The notes below the pieces were generated by a model. It was not told where the DNA came from. It was given only the letters and a program-made list of their open reading frames with translations, and ran no database searches. Positions 18,703-25,665 of a stretch of DNA of 50,631 bases are shown here, piece by piece. The position numbers and the translations under genes are program-made. Each line of letters opens with the position of its first letter. Position 1 is the first letter of the stretch. This DNA is from Candidatus Puniceispirillaceae bacterium (GTDB lineage: Bacteria; Pseudomonadota; Alphaproteobacteria; Puniceispirillales; Puniceispirillaceae), in assembly GCA_049615365.1 (NCBI GenBank), contig JBMZFK010000001.1, positions 1 through 50,631 of the forward strand. Reading direction: 5' to 3'.

Positions 18703-19464
18703 TTAGGGTCTGGCGCAAACAGGACAGGCCGGGTCGGGCGAGACCGCAATTTCGGTAAAGCTGTTAGCCAGCCCATCATATAATAACAGCCGACCAATGA
18801 GCGGTGTACCAAAACCGGCAAGTATCTTCAACGCTTCTGCTGTTTGCAAACCGCCAATGACCAGGGTGGTGCTGCCCAAAATACCGGAATTCGCACAAGA
18901 AGGTGCCTGATCATAATCAAGATCTGTTTGCGGGAAAATACAGCGCAGACACGGGCTATGCGGGTCGCCCGGCACAAAACTGGTGACCTGGCCATCTGTG
19001 CGAATTGCCCCGCCAAAAATCAGTGGTGTATTCAGGCGCTGGCAGGTGGCATTGGCCAGATATCGGGTTTCCGGATTATCGGTGCAATCTATCACCAGAT
19101 CATGGGCATCCACCAGCGCGCCTGCATTTTTCTCTGTAAAACGCACCTGCTGGCACTGCACAGAAATATCTGGATTTAGCTGCTGGATAAATTGCGCGGC
19201 ACTTGCTGATTTGGGTTGCGACAGGCTTTCTGTTTTATGGATAAATTGGCGGTTCAGATTGGTTGTATCAATTATATCCTCATCCAAAATGGTCAGATGC
19301 CCCGCGCCTGCGCCTGCCAATCCGGCAATTACCGGCGCGCCCAGCCCGCCAGCGCCAAGGATAAGCACGCGCGCTTCCAGCAATTTTTTCTGCCCGTCCT
19401 CGCCCAGCTCCAACATCACCACCTGACGGGCATAGCGTTCTATTTCAGCATCACTTAACCGCAT
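18703..19464 (-). CDS. moeB: MoeB/ThiF family adenylyltransferase
   Basis: ERYARQ, GAGGLG, NLNRQ, DCTDN and two CxxC zinc motifs (CLRC, CPVC). Confidence 0.85.
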   Translation of the reverse strand: MRLSDAEIERYARQVVMLELGEDGQKKLLEARVLILGAGGLGAPVIAGLAGAGAGHLTILDEDIIDTTNLNRQFIHKTESLSQPKSASAAQFIQQLNPDISVQCQQVRFTEKNAGALVDAHDLVIDCTDNPETRYLANATCQRLNTPLIFGGAIRTDGQVTSFVPGDPHSPCLRCIFPQTDLDYDQAPSCANSGILGSTTLVIGGLQTAEALKILAGFGTPLIGRLLLYDGLANSFTEIAVSPDPACPVCARP

Positions 19465-19505: not shown

Positions 19506-19955
19506 TTACTGGCCGGTTGAGCCAAACCCCGCTGTTCCTCTGATGGTTTTATCCAAAGTTTTCACGGTTTCAAATTCTGCCTGAATAACCGGGGCAATGA
19601 CCAGCTGTGCGATACGCATGCCATGGCTAATTTCAATAGGCTCCTGACCCAGATTGATCACAATCACTTTTACCTCGCCGCGATAATCTGCATCAATGGT
19701 GCCAGGCGCGTTCACCAGACTAAGCCCCTGTTTCAGGGCGAGACCAGAACGTGGACGAAGCTGGGCTTCATAGCCTCGGGGGATGGACATCGCCAATCCG
19801 GTGGGGATAGCGGCGCGTTCCAAAGGTTGCAGAATTACACTTGCCTCTGGCAAGGCGGCGCGTATATCTGCCCCGGCTGCTGCGGTGCTTTCATAGGCGG
19901 GCAGTAAAAGGTCTTGTGCATGTGCAAGTTTCTGGAAGCTAACTTTGATGGTCAT
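19506..19955 (-). CDS. dut: dUTP diphosphatase
   Basis: AAGADI, RPRSGLA, GTIDADYRGE, RIAQL, RGTAGFGSTG. Confidence 0.97.
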   Translation of the reverse strand: MTIKVSFQKLAHAQDLLLPAYESTAAAGADIRAALPEASVILQPLERAAIPTGLAMSIPRGYEAQLRPRSGLALKQGLSLVNAPGTIDADYRGEVKVIVINLGQEPIEISHGMRIAQLVIAPVIQAEFETVKTLDKTIRGTAGFGSTGQ

Positions 19956-21378
19956 CGAACCAGGCCTCTATTTTCTGGGTTAATGTTATCGCTATTTCTG
20001 TTTTGCTGGCGCGGGGCCAGTCATGCGCGCCGGTATCATCTAGCATGGTAACATGATTGCTGTCCTGACCAAATACCGCAGCCTTGCCGGTGCCGCCAAC
20101 CCAGTTAGTAACAATCCAGTCACATTTTTTGCGCGCGCGTTTTGCCGCGGCATGCCGGGCGATATTTTCGGTCTCTGCAGCAAAACCGATAACCAGGTGA
20201 GGGCGGTTTTCATGCTGGCTAAGGCTGGCCAGAATATCCGGATTTTCTGCCAGTTGCAGATGCGGTATCCCCTCATCAGTTTTTTTAATCTTTTGAGGCC
20301 CGCTATTTACCACATGCCAGTCGGCGACCGCCGCGGCACAGATGGCACAATCTGCAGGCAGGCTGGCCATACAGGCGTCATACATCTCGCCAGCGGTTGT
20401 GACCTTTATAACCTCCACCCCTGCTGGATCCTCCAGCTGAACAGGGCCGCTGATCAGGGTAACGCGCGCCCCTTTATCTGCACAGGCTTTGGCAATCGCA
20501 TGCCCCTGCTTGCCAGAGGAATGATTAGCGATATAGCGCACTGGATCAATCGGCTCAAAAGTAGGGCCAGAAGTAACCAGAATATGCCGCCCGGCCAGAG
20601 GCTGCGAAGGGCCAGACAGGGGCGGGGCAAGACGCGCCTCAAGAGCAGAAATAATGACCGCTGATTCAGCCAGTCTGCCCGTTCCTACCTCTCCGCAGGC
20701 CGTATCGCCATCTTCCGGGGCTATCAGGGTGACGCCGCGATTTTTCAGCATTTCTACATTGGCCCGCGTGGCGGGATGTGCCCACATATTCGGGTTCATG
20801 GCCGGGGCTATCATTACCGGGCAATCGGTTGCCAGACAAAGTGTGCTGGCCAAATCATCCGCCAGACCATGCGCCATTTTCGCCAGGAAATTTGCTGTTG
20901 CCGGGGCCACCAGCACAATATCGGCATCACGGGCCAGCCGGATATGCCCCATCTCGGCTTCATCTGTCAGCGAAAATAACTCGCTATAGGTTTTTTCACC
21001 GGTTAGGGCAGACAAGCTAAGCGGGGTGATGAATTCCATGGCTGAGCGGGTCATGACGCCGCGCACCTGATAGCCTTTATCCATCAGGCGGCGTGCAAGG
21101 TCCAAAGCTTTATAGGCCGCAATGCCGCCTGTTATCAGCAGCAACACACGTTGTTGTTGGGCCGGGTTCAGCGGGGTCAGCTGCAGGCCTTGCAGATCCA
21201 GATGCCATCCTTGCTGTGCCAGCGCGTCTTCCAGCTTGGCTCGCTTTGCTGCCGGAATTTGGGCACGCATGCGATAATTAGACAGCGCACTCGCGCCCAC
21301 AGATAACAGTTTTTGCACCGCCTCACTGCCACCAAGCTGTTCAATCGCAGCATCCAAAATGGTTTTAAAATCACTCAT
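19939..21378 (-). CDS. coaBC: bifunctional PPC decarboxylase/PPC synthetase CoaBC with extra N-terminal HTH-like domain
   Basis: ITGGIAAYK, APATAN, PAMN..MW, ACGEVG.GR, TSGPT.EPIDPVRYI.N.SSGKQG, AAVAD, GFAAET; about 75 extra residues precede the normal start region. ATG 21378 is preferred over GTG 21396. Confidence 0.95.
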   Translation of the reverse strand: MSDFKTILDAAIEQLGGSEAVQKLLSVGASALSNYRMRAQIPAAKRAKLEDALAQQGWHLDLQGLQLTPLNPAQQQRVLLLITGGIAAYKALDLARRLMDKGYQVRGVMTRSAMEFITPLSLSALTGEKTYSELFSLTDEAEMGHIRLARDADIVLVAPATANFLAKMAHGLADDLASTLCLATDCPVMIAPAMNPNMWAHPATRANVEMLKNRGVTLIAPEDGDTACGEVGTGRLAESAVIISALEARLAPPLSGPSQPLAGRHILVTSGPTFEPIDPVRYIANHSSGKQGHAIAKACADKGARVTLISGPVQLEDPAGVEVIKVTTAGEMYDACMASLPADCAICAAAVADWHVVNSGPQKIKKTDEGIPHLQLAENPDILASLSQHENRPHLVIGFAAETENIARHAAAKRARKKCDWIVTNWVGGTGKAAVFGQDSNHVTMLDDTGAHDWPRASKTEIAITLTQKIEAWFDDHQS

Positions 21379-21391
21379 TAGCCTCTCTGTT

Positions 21392-21444
21392 TTCACAAAT
21401 TTGTGAAGAATTCACATTTTAGTGAATATACAGGGTGCTGTAAA
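21392..21444 (-). promoter_or_regulatory. coaBC promoter overlapped by two tandem TTCAC-N6-GTGAA palindromes
   Basis: On the minus strand TTTACA (21444-21439)-N17-TAAAAT (21421-21416); palindromes at 21392-21407 (perfect 16-mer) and 21411-21426. Confidence 0.7.
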
Positions 21445-22912
21445 GGGCGATCAGAACAGAGATAGCGGTGACAACATAGGGCCATTTTGGGGTGGGGGGC
21501 GGTGATACAGGCCTGTCCAGCTTTTCCAGAATTTGTGGCAATTTCAGATAGAGCTGGCGTAAATCGGAAAATATCCTGTCTATCTGGGCGCGGATATTAT
21601 CTTCTGAACTGATCCAGTCGCTGGCCAGCGGGCGCGCAAACGACCACATATCTGCTTTTGGATTCAGGCTTCTGGCTACCCCTTCGGCCATCATCATGGT
21701 TTTTTGCAGTAAATTAAATTGCGGCTGCACAGAAATATCAAATCGAGCCGAGATTTGCAGAATCTGGCCAAGAACCAGACCCAGCGATATCTCGCCAAGC
21801 GATTTGCCTAATACCGGATCGGCCACGCTTCGCAGGCTTTGGGAAAACGCCGCCAGAGAGACGGTGTCATCCAGCATGCCAGCATCATAATGCAGGCGCG
21901 CCACCTTGTCATAATCACGGTTTAAAATAGCATCAAGCAAGCGTGCGAGGAACAGCCGGTCGGCAAAATCCAGCTGGCCCATTATGCCAAAATCAATCGG
22001 CACTAACAGCCCGTCACTGGTGACAAAAATATTGCCAGGATGCATATCAGCGTGGAAATAGCCATCGCGGAAAACCTGATTAAAAAAGCTGGTGGCCGCC
22101 GCTTCGGTAATCTTGGCAATATCGTGTCCAGCCGCCTGTAGCCCGTCTACATCATCAATGCGAACGCCATCAATCCATTCGATGACCAGCATGTGGCTGT
22201 TGGTGCGTTCCAGATCAATAAAAGGGACACGGATGCCCTTATCGCCAGCCATATTTTCACGCAGCCGGCTTCCTGCGGCCGCTTCCATTCGCAAATCAAG
22301 TTCAATATCCGATATATGCTCAAATTGCTGAACCGCGGTTACCAGTTTTAGGCGGCGCAAGCCCGGCGCAAGCGCCTCTGCCAGCCGCGCCAGCGCACGG
22401 AAAAACCGCACATCCCGTCGCAAGCGCTTGGCGATGCCAGGACGCAATATTTTTACCGCTACCAAACGTCCATCTGGCAGGGTTGCTTTGTGAACCTGGG
22501 CAATAGAGGCAGCGGCAATAGCGGTTTCTTCGAAATGCAAAAAAAGCTCGGAAAGGGGTTTTTGTGTGGTGTCCTCAATAATCTGGATAGCCCTTTTACC
22601 AGAAAAAGGTGGCATCCTGTCTTGCAGCTGCACCAGCCCGCTTGCCAATTCAGGACCAATCAAATCTGCTCTGGTCGCCAGCGCCTGTCCAAATTTAACA
22701 AATCCTGGTCCCAAAGCCTGTAGCGCATCGCACAAAGCTTGCCCTGCATCTTTTCTGGATTTACGCCCGGCTATGATAAAATTCAGGATCAGTAACAGGC
22801 GGCAAAACCAGTCTGGCAACAGATCGATTTTTGCCAGATGCCCAAGCACCCCGGCCCGGCCAAGAATAAAGCCGGTTCGCGGCAACCGCCACAATGTCAG
22901 CAGACTATCCAT
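21419..22912 (-). CDS. ubiB: ubiquinone biosynthesis kinase-like protein UbiB
   Basis: LGPGFVKFGQ, AAASIAQVH, VAVKILRP, FHADMHPGN, IDFGIMG; coupled to ubiE. Confidence 0.95.
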   Translation of the reverse strand: MDSLLTLWRLPRTGFILGRAGVLGHLAKIDLLPDWFCRLLLILNFIIAGRKSRKDAGQALCDALQALGPGFVKFGQALATRADLIGPELASGLVQLQDRMPPFSGKRAIQIIEDTTQKPLSELFLHFEETAIAAASIAQVHKATLPDGRLVAVKILRPGIAKRLRRDVRFFRALARLAEALAPGLRRLKLVTAVQQFEHISDIELDLRMEAAAGSRLRENMAGDKGIRVPFIDLERTNSHMLVIEWIDGVRIDDVDGLQAAGHDIAKITEAAATSFFNQVFRDGYFHADMHPGNIFVTSDGLLVPIDFGIMGQLDFADRLFLARLLDAILNRDYDKVARLHYDAGMLDDTVSLAAFSQSLRSVADPVLGKSLGEISLGLVLGQILQISARFDISVQPQFNLLQKTMMMAEGVARSLNPKADMWSFARPLASDWISSEDNIRAQIDRIFSDLRQLYLKLPQILEKLDRPVSPPPTPKWPYVVTAISVLIALYSTLYIH

Positions 22913-25315: not shown

Positions 25316-25665
25316 GAGGGCGGTTAGCTACCATAGTTATCAGCCTACTTTGATTCGCCTTTCTTAACCTGTTCTCTTTCTTGTAGAAAATTTATTTAAC
25401 CTGCCTCTGGGCAGTTTTGGTGCGGCAAACTGTCAAGGAAAAAAACTGCCAAAAAACCATATTTATTTTCACCAAATCGGTTTTTGGTGACTTGAAACAA
25501 CCAGCAAATTTGCGCTACCTTCACGGCTAGGGCTCGTGAAGTTTCACATGCATTTTTAATCACGGAAAAGTGTGTTTCAAATTCTTACGCTAGCTTACGA
25601 AAAAATAAAAACAACAATGCCGTCCGGGCGATTTGGGCCCAGGCGCGAGAGAAGTGTACAGTTTC

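What the first reader, a model, noticed from the sequence alone, without database searches (positions are those of the whole stretch)
21151..21378. CoaBC carries an extra N-terminal Cro/YdaS-like helix-turn-helix domain: candidate self-regulating CoA enzyme
Seen: about 75 residues (MSDFKTILDAAIEQLGGSEAVQKLLSVGASALSNYRMRAQIPAAKRAKLEDAL...) fused in frame ahead of RVLLLITGGIAAYK, where CoaBC normally begins, with all CoaC and CoaB motifs intact. The pattern I..LGG..AV..LL.V..SA.SN[WY]R....IP is typical of small Cro/YdaS-type HTH proteins. Established: enzyme-HTH fusions such as BirA, NadR and PutA repress their own pathways, and CoaBC is an oligomer that is feedback-regulated by CoA species in some bacteria. 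I know of no described DNA-binding CoaBC. Inference: a trigger enzyme coupling CoA/PPC/CTP status to transcription of coaBC-dut-moeB, with the oligomer presenting several HTHs to a multi-site operator.
Basis: partly seen in the sequence, partly recalled or inferred. Interest (0 to 1): 0.85.

Follow-up and report, generated by a model that had tools for sequence, protein, structure and literature searches.

The report
CoA enzyme carrying a phage repressor
In a whole order of marine bacteria (SAR116 group), the enzyme for two steps of coenzyme A synthesis carries a small phage-repressor-like head, and DNA palindromes of the kind found in front of that head's phage relatives sit in front of its own gene, so the enzyme likely switches down its own production.

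Summary
Confirmed and extended. CoaBC (19939-21378, minus strand) has 76 extra N-terminal residues predicted to fold as a Cro-type helix-turn-helix (best match Xfaso 1 Cro, 3bd1). All 58 coaBC genes opened in the order carry it; 79 of 80 high-quality genomes have the domain; 0 of 105 other alphaproteobacterial coaBC loci do. Its predicted recognition helix is strongly conserved (dN/dS 0.02). Two palindromes, TTCAC-N6-GTGAA (21392-21407, 21411-21426), overlap a predicted promoter and are the genome's two best sites. The palindrome follows the HTH, not the enzyme: TTCA-N7/8-TGAA precedes HTH-coaBC, HTH-hisZ fusions (6 of 7) and phage cro genes with the same SAVSN helix (15 of 26), but not HTH-less coaBC (0 of 105) or cro genes with a TVQGW helix (0 of 25). 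Best reading: a phage cro-operator cassette turned into a self-repressing enzyme (about 0.8). Gating by CoA or CTP is untested (about 0.35). Against: one genus keeps the domain without boxes (0 of 7); nothing is assayed. Eight paper searches for the fusion or its regulation found no report. This scan noted the same fusion earlier on another genome (e1-9720905).

The parts
19939..21378 (-). coaBC gene, 479 aa, Cro-like HTH fused to CoaC and CoaB
   Evidence: (TIGR00521 416.7 bits)
21172..21378 (-). N-terminal Cro-type HTH domain, residues 1-69 (four helices and a beta hairpin, predicted)
21265..21294 (-). predicted recognition helix, residues 29-38 (ASALSNYRMR); A31, S33, N34 invariant in 58 of 58
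   Evidence: dN/dS 0.020 for residues 27-38
20677..21150 (-). CoaC (PPC decarboxylase) domain, residues 77-234
   Evidence: PF02441 E 9e-33; H145 and C228 invariant in 44 of 44
20041..20598 (-). CoaB (PPC synthetase) domain, residues 261-446
   Evidence: PF04127 E 8e-69
21382..21388 (-). SD-like ribosome-binding site AGAGAGG before the ATG at 21378
   Evidence: sequence
21392..21407 (.). proximal candidate operator, perfect palindrome TTCACAAATTTGTGAA
   Evidence: 25.2 bits; next site outside this promoter 17.1
21411..21426 (.). distal candidate operator, TTCAC-N6-GTGAA, overlapping the ubiB stop codon and the predicted -10 box
   Evidence: (25.5 bits)
21416..21444 (-). predicted sigma70-type promoter TTTACA-N17-TAAAAT (consensus match only)
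   Evidence: 10 of 12; 1 found, 0.5 expected by chance; similar layout in family f2 consensus
19506..19955 (-). dut, overlapping the coaBC stop; likely co-regulated
   Evidence: found in 49 of 58 loci
18703..19464 (-). moeB/thiF-family gene, likely last gene of the unit
   Evidence: found in 27 of the 28 loci with longer downstream flank
21419..22912 (-). ubiB, upstream neighbour in 58 of 58 loci; its 3' end holds the predicted promoter

Best explanation
CoaBC of this order is an intact CoA-pathway enzyme fused to a phage-type Cro helix-turn-helix that likely binds the TTCAC-N5/6-GTGAA palindromes over its own predicted promoter and would so repress coaBC-dut(-moeB). Shown: the fusion, its conservation, the palindromes and their co-occurrence with this HTH type. 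Predicted: the HTH fold and the promoter. Inferred: (1) pairs of HTH heads, held together by the enzyme oligomer (a dodecamer in mycobacteria, PMC7794376), read the two half-sites, and the 2-4 half-sites in a row give avidity; (2) binding over the -10/+1 region blocks RNA polymerase, so expression falls as enzyme accumulates; (3) the head and its operator came together as a cro promoter-operator-gene cassette from a temperate phage into the ubiB-coaBC junction of the order's ancestor and were inherited vertically. I take plain negative feedback on enzyme level as the default (about 0.45 of the 0.8) and metabolite gating as the open refinement (about 0.35).
For: Fusion in 58 of 58 coaBC opened; domain in 132 of 151 order genomes, 79 of 80 high-quality ones, one copy each, nearly all in 470-530 aa frames; the one high-quality miss (G481) has coaBC cut by a contig end. 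dN/dS 0.020 in the recognition helix, 0.037 over residues 15-42, 0.094 over the extension, 0.069 in CoaC, 14 close pairs. TTCAC-N5,6-GTGAA within 120 nt upstream: f1 24 of 36, f2 8 of 8, f3 6 of 6, shuffles under 0.3; held-out genomes f2 8 of 11, f1 3 of 11 with half-sites 2.64 per locus against 0.32 shuffled. Absent from 29 and 76 HTH-less coaBC loci. Unbiased count of spaced inverted 4-mers: TTCA-N7-TGAA is 14 of 14 in f2+f3, tops HTH-hisZ (6 of 7) and phage cro genes with the SAVSN helix (15 of 26); TTCA-N8-TGAA 24 of 36 in f1; phage cro genes with a TVQGW helix have TACG-N7-CGTA (20 of 25) and no TTCA box (0 of 25). In several phage loci the box lies right behind TTGAC in the cro promoter. 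Genome-wide the two boxes are the top sites; in 10 near-complete genomes 10 of 15 strict sites lie at coaBC, the other 5 matching 4 reversed-pattern controls. Phage-type CI partner found weakly in 4 of 61 genomes; Rex in 0 of 6. HTH tree follows host families.
Against: No binding or expression data; the RNA contigs laid did not cover the extension or promoter. Genus g313 of family f4 keeps the domain (helix changed to PSTISNW) with no boxes, 0 of 7, and coaBC abutting the upstream gene; g314 0 of 1. Family f4 has no TTCAC palindrome (0 of 8) and its ATGAA half-site includes the ubiB stop codon in 6 of 8. 12 of 36 f1 loci lack the full palindrome and show only half-site runs. In phages CI and Cro share operators (recalled), so the helix-to-box link there could partly reflect CI. 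The window's own domain is below Pfam and NCBIfam cut-offs. One origin of the CoaBC HTH is not rejected but not shown (p-AU 0.31). Genomes are related, so counts are not independent.
Confidence: 0.8

Rival explanations
1. Refinement of the best reading: a true trigger enzyme, in which CoA thioesters, CTP or phosphopantothenate bound in CoaB change the oligomer and switch DNA binding on or off. This probability lies inside the 0.8.
For: CoA and acyl-CoAs inhibit mycobacterial CoaB competitively with CTP (PMC7794376, passages); RbkR binding is raised by CTP and lowered by FMN, and BirA, NadR, PutA are like cases (PMC5397151, passages and section 14). The same HTH type is also fused to HisZ, a histidine-sensing subunit (recalled).
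Against: Linker length varies (43-78 residues; extension of 176 in P0071), which fits a tether better than a fixed allosteric interface; the ligand sites are in CoaB, at the far end of the chain; mycobacterial CoaBC showed only the dodecamer by native MS; no strong sites at other genes.
Confidence: 0.35
2. The palindromes are read by another regulator in trans (Rex, a CRP/FNR protein or a phage-type CI), and the fused HTH is incidental.
For: GTGAA-N-TTCAC resembles Rex and CRP boxes (recalled); three CRP-like HTH matches exist in G000.
Against: Rex family not found in G000 or 5 near-complete relatives; the f1 GTGAA-to-TTCAC gap is 3, not the 4 recalled for Rex/CRP, and f2/f3 lack that arrangement in the first set (0 of 14); CI-like partner weak in 4 of 61; counts of the pattern genome-wide are near control; the box follows the HTH onto hisZ and phage cro.
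Confidence: 0.07
3. The HTH is a relic or a structural/oligomerisation module (as XRE-like domains in HppE/MPnS may be, recalled) and no longer regulates.
For: HppE, MPnS and HEPD are among the fold matches; g313 keeps the domain without boxes.
Against: Selection is strongest on the recognition helix (0.020) and weakest on residues 43-69 (0.143); matching boxes are kept in a 30-111 nt intergenic gap across three families.
Confidence: 0.09
4. The palindromes act as an RNA hairpin (terminator or translational element).
For: They lie between the ubiB stop and the coaBC ribosome site and can pair.
Against: No terminator-like site; folding z -1.36, 24 of 200 shuffles as good; sequence rather than pairing is kept, and several genera have direct runs of half-sites that cannot pair.
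Confidence: 0.03

Closest known systems
RbkR, archaeal riboflavin kinase/regulator (PMC5397151; passages and section 14 read)
   Same: [quoted passage not shown]
   Different: MarR-like winged HTH on a dimer, activator, multi-gene regulon, ligand control shown; here a Cro-type HTH on CoaBC, sites over the promoter, apparently one target, ligand control untested
BirA, NadR, PutA ('trigger enzymes', as listed in PMC5397151 section 14)
   Same: enzyme-HTH fusions that control genes of their own pathway
   Different: other pathways and enzymes; none acts in CoA synthesis; no phage-matched operator described in what I read
Xfaso 1 Cro (PDB 3bd1) and alphaproteobacterial phage Cro-like proteins with the SAVSN helix (L202-L234)
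   Same: sequence and predicted fold; same palindrome in front of the gene, divergent XRE repressor gene in the phages
   Different: stand-alone 64-100 aa phage proteins with a CI partner; here fused to an essential enzyme, no conserved CI, spacer one base longer in family f1
NCBIfam NF046037 carph-isopro domain
   Same: the extension matches 53 of 54 model positions; an f4 orthologue passes the cut-off (41.6 bits)
   Different: the window's copy scores 21.6-25.6 bits, under 38; the members that score best have a TVQGW/ISGW helix and another palindrome; no paper holds the name
Canonical CoaBC (TIGR00521; M. smegmatis 6tgv)
   Same: whole enzyme part, 416.7 bits; E 2.9e-74 to 6tgv
   Different: no N-terminal HTH in 6tgv or in 105 other alphaproteobacterial loci

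Membership tests
CoaBC (TIGR00521) | score above the curated cut-off with CoaC then CoaB domains | tested here: met
   416.7 bits vs 219.7; PF02441 and PF04127
CoaBC (TIGR00521) | catalytic His and Cys of CoaC kept (roles recalled) | tested here: met
   H145, C228, N195 invariant in 44 of 44
CoaBC (TIGR00521) | enzyme activity and dodecamer | not testable with these tools
   dodecamer shown only for mycobacterial CoaBC (PMC7794376)
Cro/YdaS-type HTH (PF15943, PF14549; 3bd1) | family score above Pfam cut-off | tested here: inconclusive
   window copy 19.4 bits vs 30; 45 and 43 of 58 orthologues hit at E<=0.05, best 1.9e-8
Cro/YdaS-type HTH (PF15943, PF14549; 3bd1) | lambda-repressor-like helical fold with HTH in helices 2-3 | tested here: met
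   model pLDDT 90.3; best match 3bd1 by sequence profile E 5.7e-12, Foldseek and VIA Z 7.2; prediction, not a solved structure
Cro/YdaS-type HTH (PF15943, PF14549; 3bd1) | palindromic operator in front of its own gene | tested here: met
   not met in f4 genus g313 (0 of 7)
Cro/YdaS-type HTH (PF15943, PF14549; 3bd1) | divergent CI partner in a phage switch | tested here: not met
   upstream gene is ubiB in 58 of 58; CI-like profile weak in 4 of 61 genomes
carph-isopro domain (NF046037) | score of 38 bits or more | tested here: inconclusive
   window 21.6-25.6 bits; orthologue L052 41.6 bits
Trigger enzymes (BirA, NadR, PutA, RbkR) | DNA-binding domain fused to an intact metabolic enzyme | tested here: met
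Trigger enzymes (BirA, NadR, PutA, RbkR) | specific binding to operators of pathway genes | not testable with these tools
   inferred from co-occurrence only
Trigger enzymes (BirA, NadR, PutA, RbkR) | DNA binding gated by substrate or product | not testable with these tools
   no data; variable linker
Rex regulon | Rex repressor (PF06971) in the genome | tested here: not met
   0 of 1 (G000, 83% complete) and 0 of 5 near-complete relatives; rings in 7 of 14 controls

The most novel reading that the evidence does not exclude
Streamlined marine alphaproteobacteria have repeatedly domesticated a phage cro-plus-operator cassette as a 70-residue self-regulation module: on CoaBC throughout the SAR116 order and on HisZ in two other families. 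The enzyme oligomer replaces Cro's own dimer, and CoA thioesters or CTP bound in CoaB gate DNA binding, making this a CoA-sensing transcription factor that is itself a CoA biosynthetic enzyme, with a readable helix-to-operator code (SAVSN to TTCA-N7/8-TGAA, TVQGW to TACG-N7-CGTA).
Probability: 0.3. Interest if true: 0.86.

Novelty: new variant of a known kind. Interest (0 to 1): 0.72.

Why it matters
I found no paper describing a DNA-binding CoaBC (open-licence PMC and bioRxiv only). If right, an abundant marine order controls an essential CoA step with a regulator built into the enzyme, taken from a phage together with its operator, and the protein, the 16-bp site and the residues to mutate are all named, so one gel shift and one reporter test it. 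The HisZ fusion suggests a repeated route by which small genomes gain regulation cheaply.

Tried and rejected
Downstream start at the enzyme core: rejected. Rex, CRP-like or CI regulator in trans: not supported. RNA hairpin or terminator: not supported. Wider CoA regulon: no second strong site in G000 (83% complete) and background-level extra sites in 10 genomes; the 5 extra sites were not opened. RNA evidence: 4 of 8 RNA runs laid, all contigs, none covering 21150-21460; says nothing on expression or start. Reciprocal test on HTH-less hisZ in this order: no hisZ found with that query in G000 or 5 relatives. A prediction of HTH self-pairing was not available, so dimerisation of the head is open. 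Apparent losses: G481 and G484 are cut by contig ends, G488 has several frame breaks, the G550 match is an HTH start joined to unrelated sequence; G008, G041, G047, G553 had no coaBC match. The HTH tree (62 columns) could not settle one origin or a donor. The word-index protein search reached only close relatives (18 hits). One search added nothing.

Full report
Observation. The minus-strand ORF 21378-19939 gives a 479-aa protein with 76 residues ahead of the usual CoaBC start. The rest is a full CoaBC: TIGR00521 416.7 bits against a cut-off of 219.7, PF02441 at 77-234 and PF04127 at 261-446, alignment to M. smegmatis 6tgv from residue 75; H145, N195 and C228 are invariant in 44 of 44 orthologues (catalytic roles recalled). 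The gene lies between ubiB and dut-moeB. Two fusion-bearing records are titled Candidatus Puniceispirillaceae (L123, L125), which places the group in SAR116.

The domain. Alone it is a weak hit: YdaS_toxin E 9e-4 and P22_Cro E 0.06, carph-isopro 25.6 bits, all under cut-off. With 58 orthologues (A1), 45 hit YdaS_toxin and 43 P22_Cro at E<=0.05, and the profile finds Xfaso 1 Cro 3bd1 at E 5.7e-12. AlphaFold gives four helices and a hairpin at pLDDT 90.3 (same elements in the full-length model, pTM 0.56). Foldseek ranks 3bd1 first, though no match reached E 0.001; VIA gives Z 7.2, tied with other XRE/Cro domains.

Distribution. A single-protein search hit 51 of 61 relatives; the 8 f4 genomes, mostly missed, also have the extension. 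All 58 coaBC genes opened carry it in frame. The profile hits 132 of 151 order genomes and 79 of 80 high-quality ones, one copy each; the one high-quality miss is cut by a contig end. Outside the order, 77 of 401 class genomes hit (this tally includes the unpublished genome G092, on which no other claim rests). I opened 26 of the 81 matches outside the order: 7 fused to HisZ, 3 to crotonyl-CoA carboxylase/reductase, 14 to a long coiled-coil-like protein (5 scanned; my label COG4223-like is recalled), 2 stand-alone, none to CoaBC; 55 were not opened. CoaBC in 28 of 30 such genomes (29 loci used, one partial dropped) and 76 more alphaproteobacterial loci has no HTH (one search kept 80 of at least 599). 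Among the best 150 of 1936 representatives, the long ones scanned were CoaBC or HisZ fusions or multi-HTH proteins, and many were 64-100 aa stand-alone proteins.

Selection and start. Over 14 hand-picked close pairs (some share members), dN/dS is 0.094 for the extension, 0.037 for residues 15-42, 0.020 for 27-38, 0.143 for 43-69 and 0.069 for CoaC. In 22 of 58 a stop lies within 3 codons before the first ATG; 17 of 58 have an ATG near the core, 1 with a strong SD.

The operator. The 40-nt gap after ubiB holds two palindromes 19 bp apart, 21392-21407 and 21411-21426, across a consensus promoter TTTACA-N17-TAAAAT (1 found, 0.5 expected, so weak alone). TTCAC-W6-GTGAA occurs nowhere else in the 1.8 Mb assembly, and a matrix from 21 sites of relatives ranks them first (25.5 and 25.2 bits, next 17.1). 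TTCAC-N5,6-GTGAA (the N5 form added) is within 120 nt upstream in f1 24 of 36, f2 8 of 8, f3 6 of 6, f4 0 of 8, HTH-less controls 0 of 29 and 0 of 76 (150 nt). On 40 held-out regions (2 dropped, helix not found): f2 8 of 11, f1 3 of 11 with half-sites 2.64 per locus against 0.32 shuffled; a pattern widened after the fact to TTCAY/RTGAA gave g16 3 of 4, g312 2 of 3, g313 0 of 7, g314 0 of 1. In f4 the ATGAA half includes the ubiB stop in 6 of 8, so f4 evidence is weak. The f2 consensus reads TTtACA, 17 nt, tat.at, with one box on the -35 and one just behind the -10. Genome-wide counts are 0-9 against 0-7 for the reversed pattern; of 15 strict sites in 10 near-complete genomes 10 are at coaBC. 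So it looks like a one-target regulon.

The box follows the HTH. Phage genes with the same SAVSN helix (33 loci, 27 distinct proteins) have TTCA-N7,8-TGAA upstream in 16 of 27 (0.31 expected), often right behind TTGAC, and 11 of 15 inspected have a clear divergent small XRE repressor gene. An unbiased count of spaced inverted 4-mers gives TTCA-N7-TGAA for those phages (15 of 26), for f2+f3 coaBC (14 of 14) and HTH-hisZ (6 of 7), the N8 form for f1 (24 of 36), nothing for HTH-less coaBC, and TACG-N7-CGTA (20 of 25; TTCA box 0 of 25) for phage genes with a TVQGW helix (25 distinct usable proteins from 80 kept of 94 loci). The phage CI profile finds weak matches in 4 of 61 relatives, Rex is not found in 6 genomes, and the region is not an unusual RNA hairpin. 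The fused head is therefore the simplest reader of these boxes. The HTH tree groups f1, f3 and f4 each with strong support; one origin is neither rejected nor shown.

Mechanism. Shown: fusion, conservation, boxes, co-occurrence. Inferred: the oligomer (dodecamer in mycobacteria; PMC7794376, passages) presents paired heads to 2-4 half-sites and blocks the promoter, giving negative feedback on coaBC-dut(-moeB), about 0.8. Gating by CoA species or CTP is plausible by analogy with RbkR (PMC5397151, passages and section 14) and with CoA-thioester inhibition of CoaB, but the variable linker and single target give no support; about 0.35. Against the whole reading: g313 keeps the domain without boxes, a third of f1 loci have only half-site runs, and the RNA contigs were uninformative. 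Whether the head dimerises alone remains open.

Known or new. Searches (listings only, apart from the papers named; PMC11487621 passages showed no coaBC regulator) found no DNA-binding CoaBC; (listing only) was for Cro background. No supplements were read; subscription papers, RegPrecise and bioRxiv supplements could hold a note on this. It works like the enzyme-regulator fusions BirA, NadR, PutA and RbkR, but membership as a ligand-gated trigger enzyme is untested. Verdict: real, new variant of a known kind, interest 0.72.

Noticed in passing
L063-L069 (class genomes G393, G452, G360, G106, G253, G169, G295; families f113, f50): The same SAVSN-type HTH is fused to HisZ, with TTCAT-N5-ATGAA palindromes upstream (6 of 7 by TTCA-N7-TGAA): a likely second self-regulating enzyme subunit.
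   Followed up: partly
L070, L072, L073 (family f151): A related HTH (helix TAISGW/TAVSGW, carph-isopro above cut-off) is fused to crotonyl-CoA carboxylase/reductase (TIGR01751); no TTCA box upstream; its own operator was not sought.
   Followed up: partly
L075-L088: A carph-isopro HTH with a TVQGW helix heads a long coiled-coil-like protein in many alphaproteobacterial families; L083 and L087 have GTAC/TACG-rich palindromes upstream, resembling the box of TVQGW phage cro genes, most others do not.
   Followed up: partly
L202-L234 and L283-L362 (viral contigs): Two phage Cro subfamilies show a clean helix-to-operator code: SAVSN with TTCA-N7-TGAA, TVQGW with TACG-N7-CGTA, the box usually right behind the TTGAC -35.
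   Followed up: yes
L253-L259 (family f4, genus g313): HTH retained with Ala31 changed to Thr, no boxes and almost no intergenic gap: possible relaxed or re-targeted regulator.
   Followed up: partly
L031-L036, L040-L044 (f1 genera with SAISNY/SAVSNY helix): Half-sites occur as direct runs, in several loci about 10 bp apart, instead of full palindromes, as might suit heads on an oligomer.
   Followed up: no
L051-L058 (family f4): dut is not found next to coaBC; a moeB-like gene follows within the fetched flank.
   Followed up: no
window 25520-25548: A loose cluster of three TTCAC/GTGAA half-sites upstream of dnaA; not among the top matrix hits, probably chance.
   Followed up: no
L125 / P0071: An orthologue with a linker of over 100 low-complexity residues between HTH and CoaC and about ten half-sites upstream.
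   Followed up: no
G014, G019, G028, G049, G042 and G000: No hisZ found with the L064 query, so this order may use a long-form HisG (not checked).
   Followed up: no
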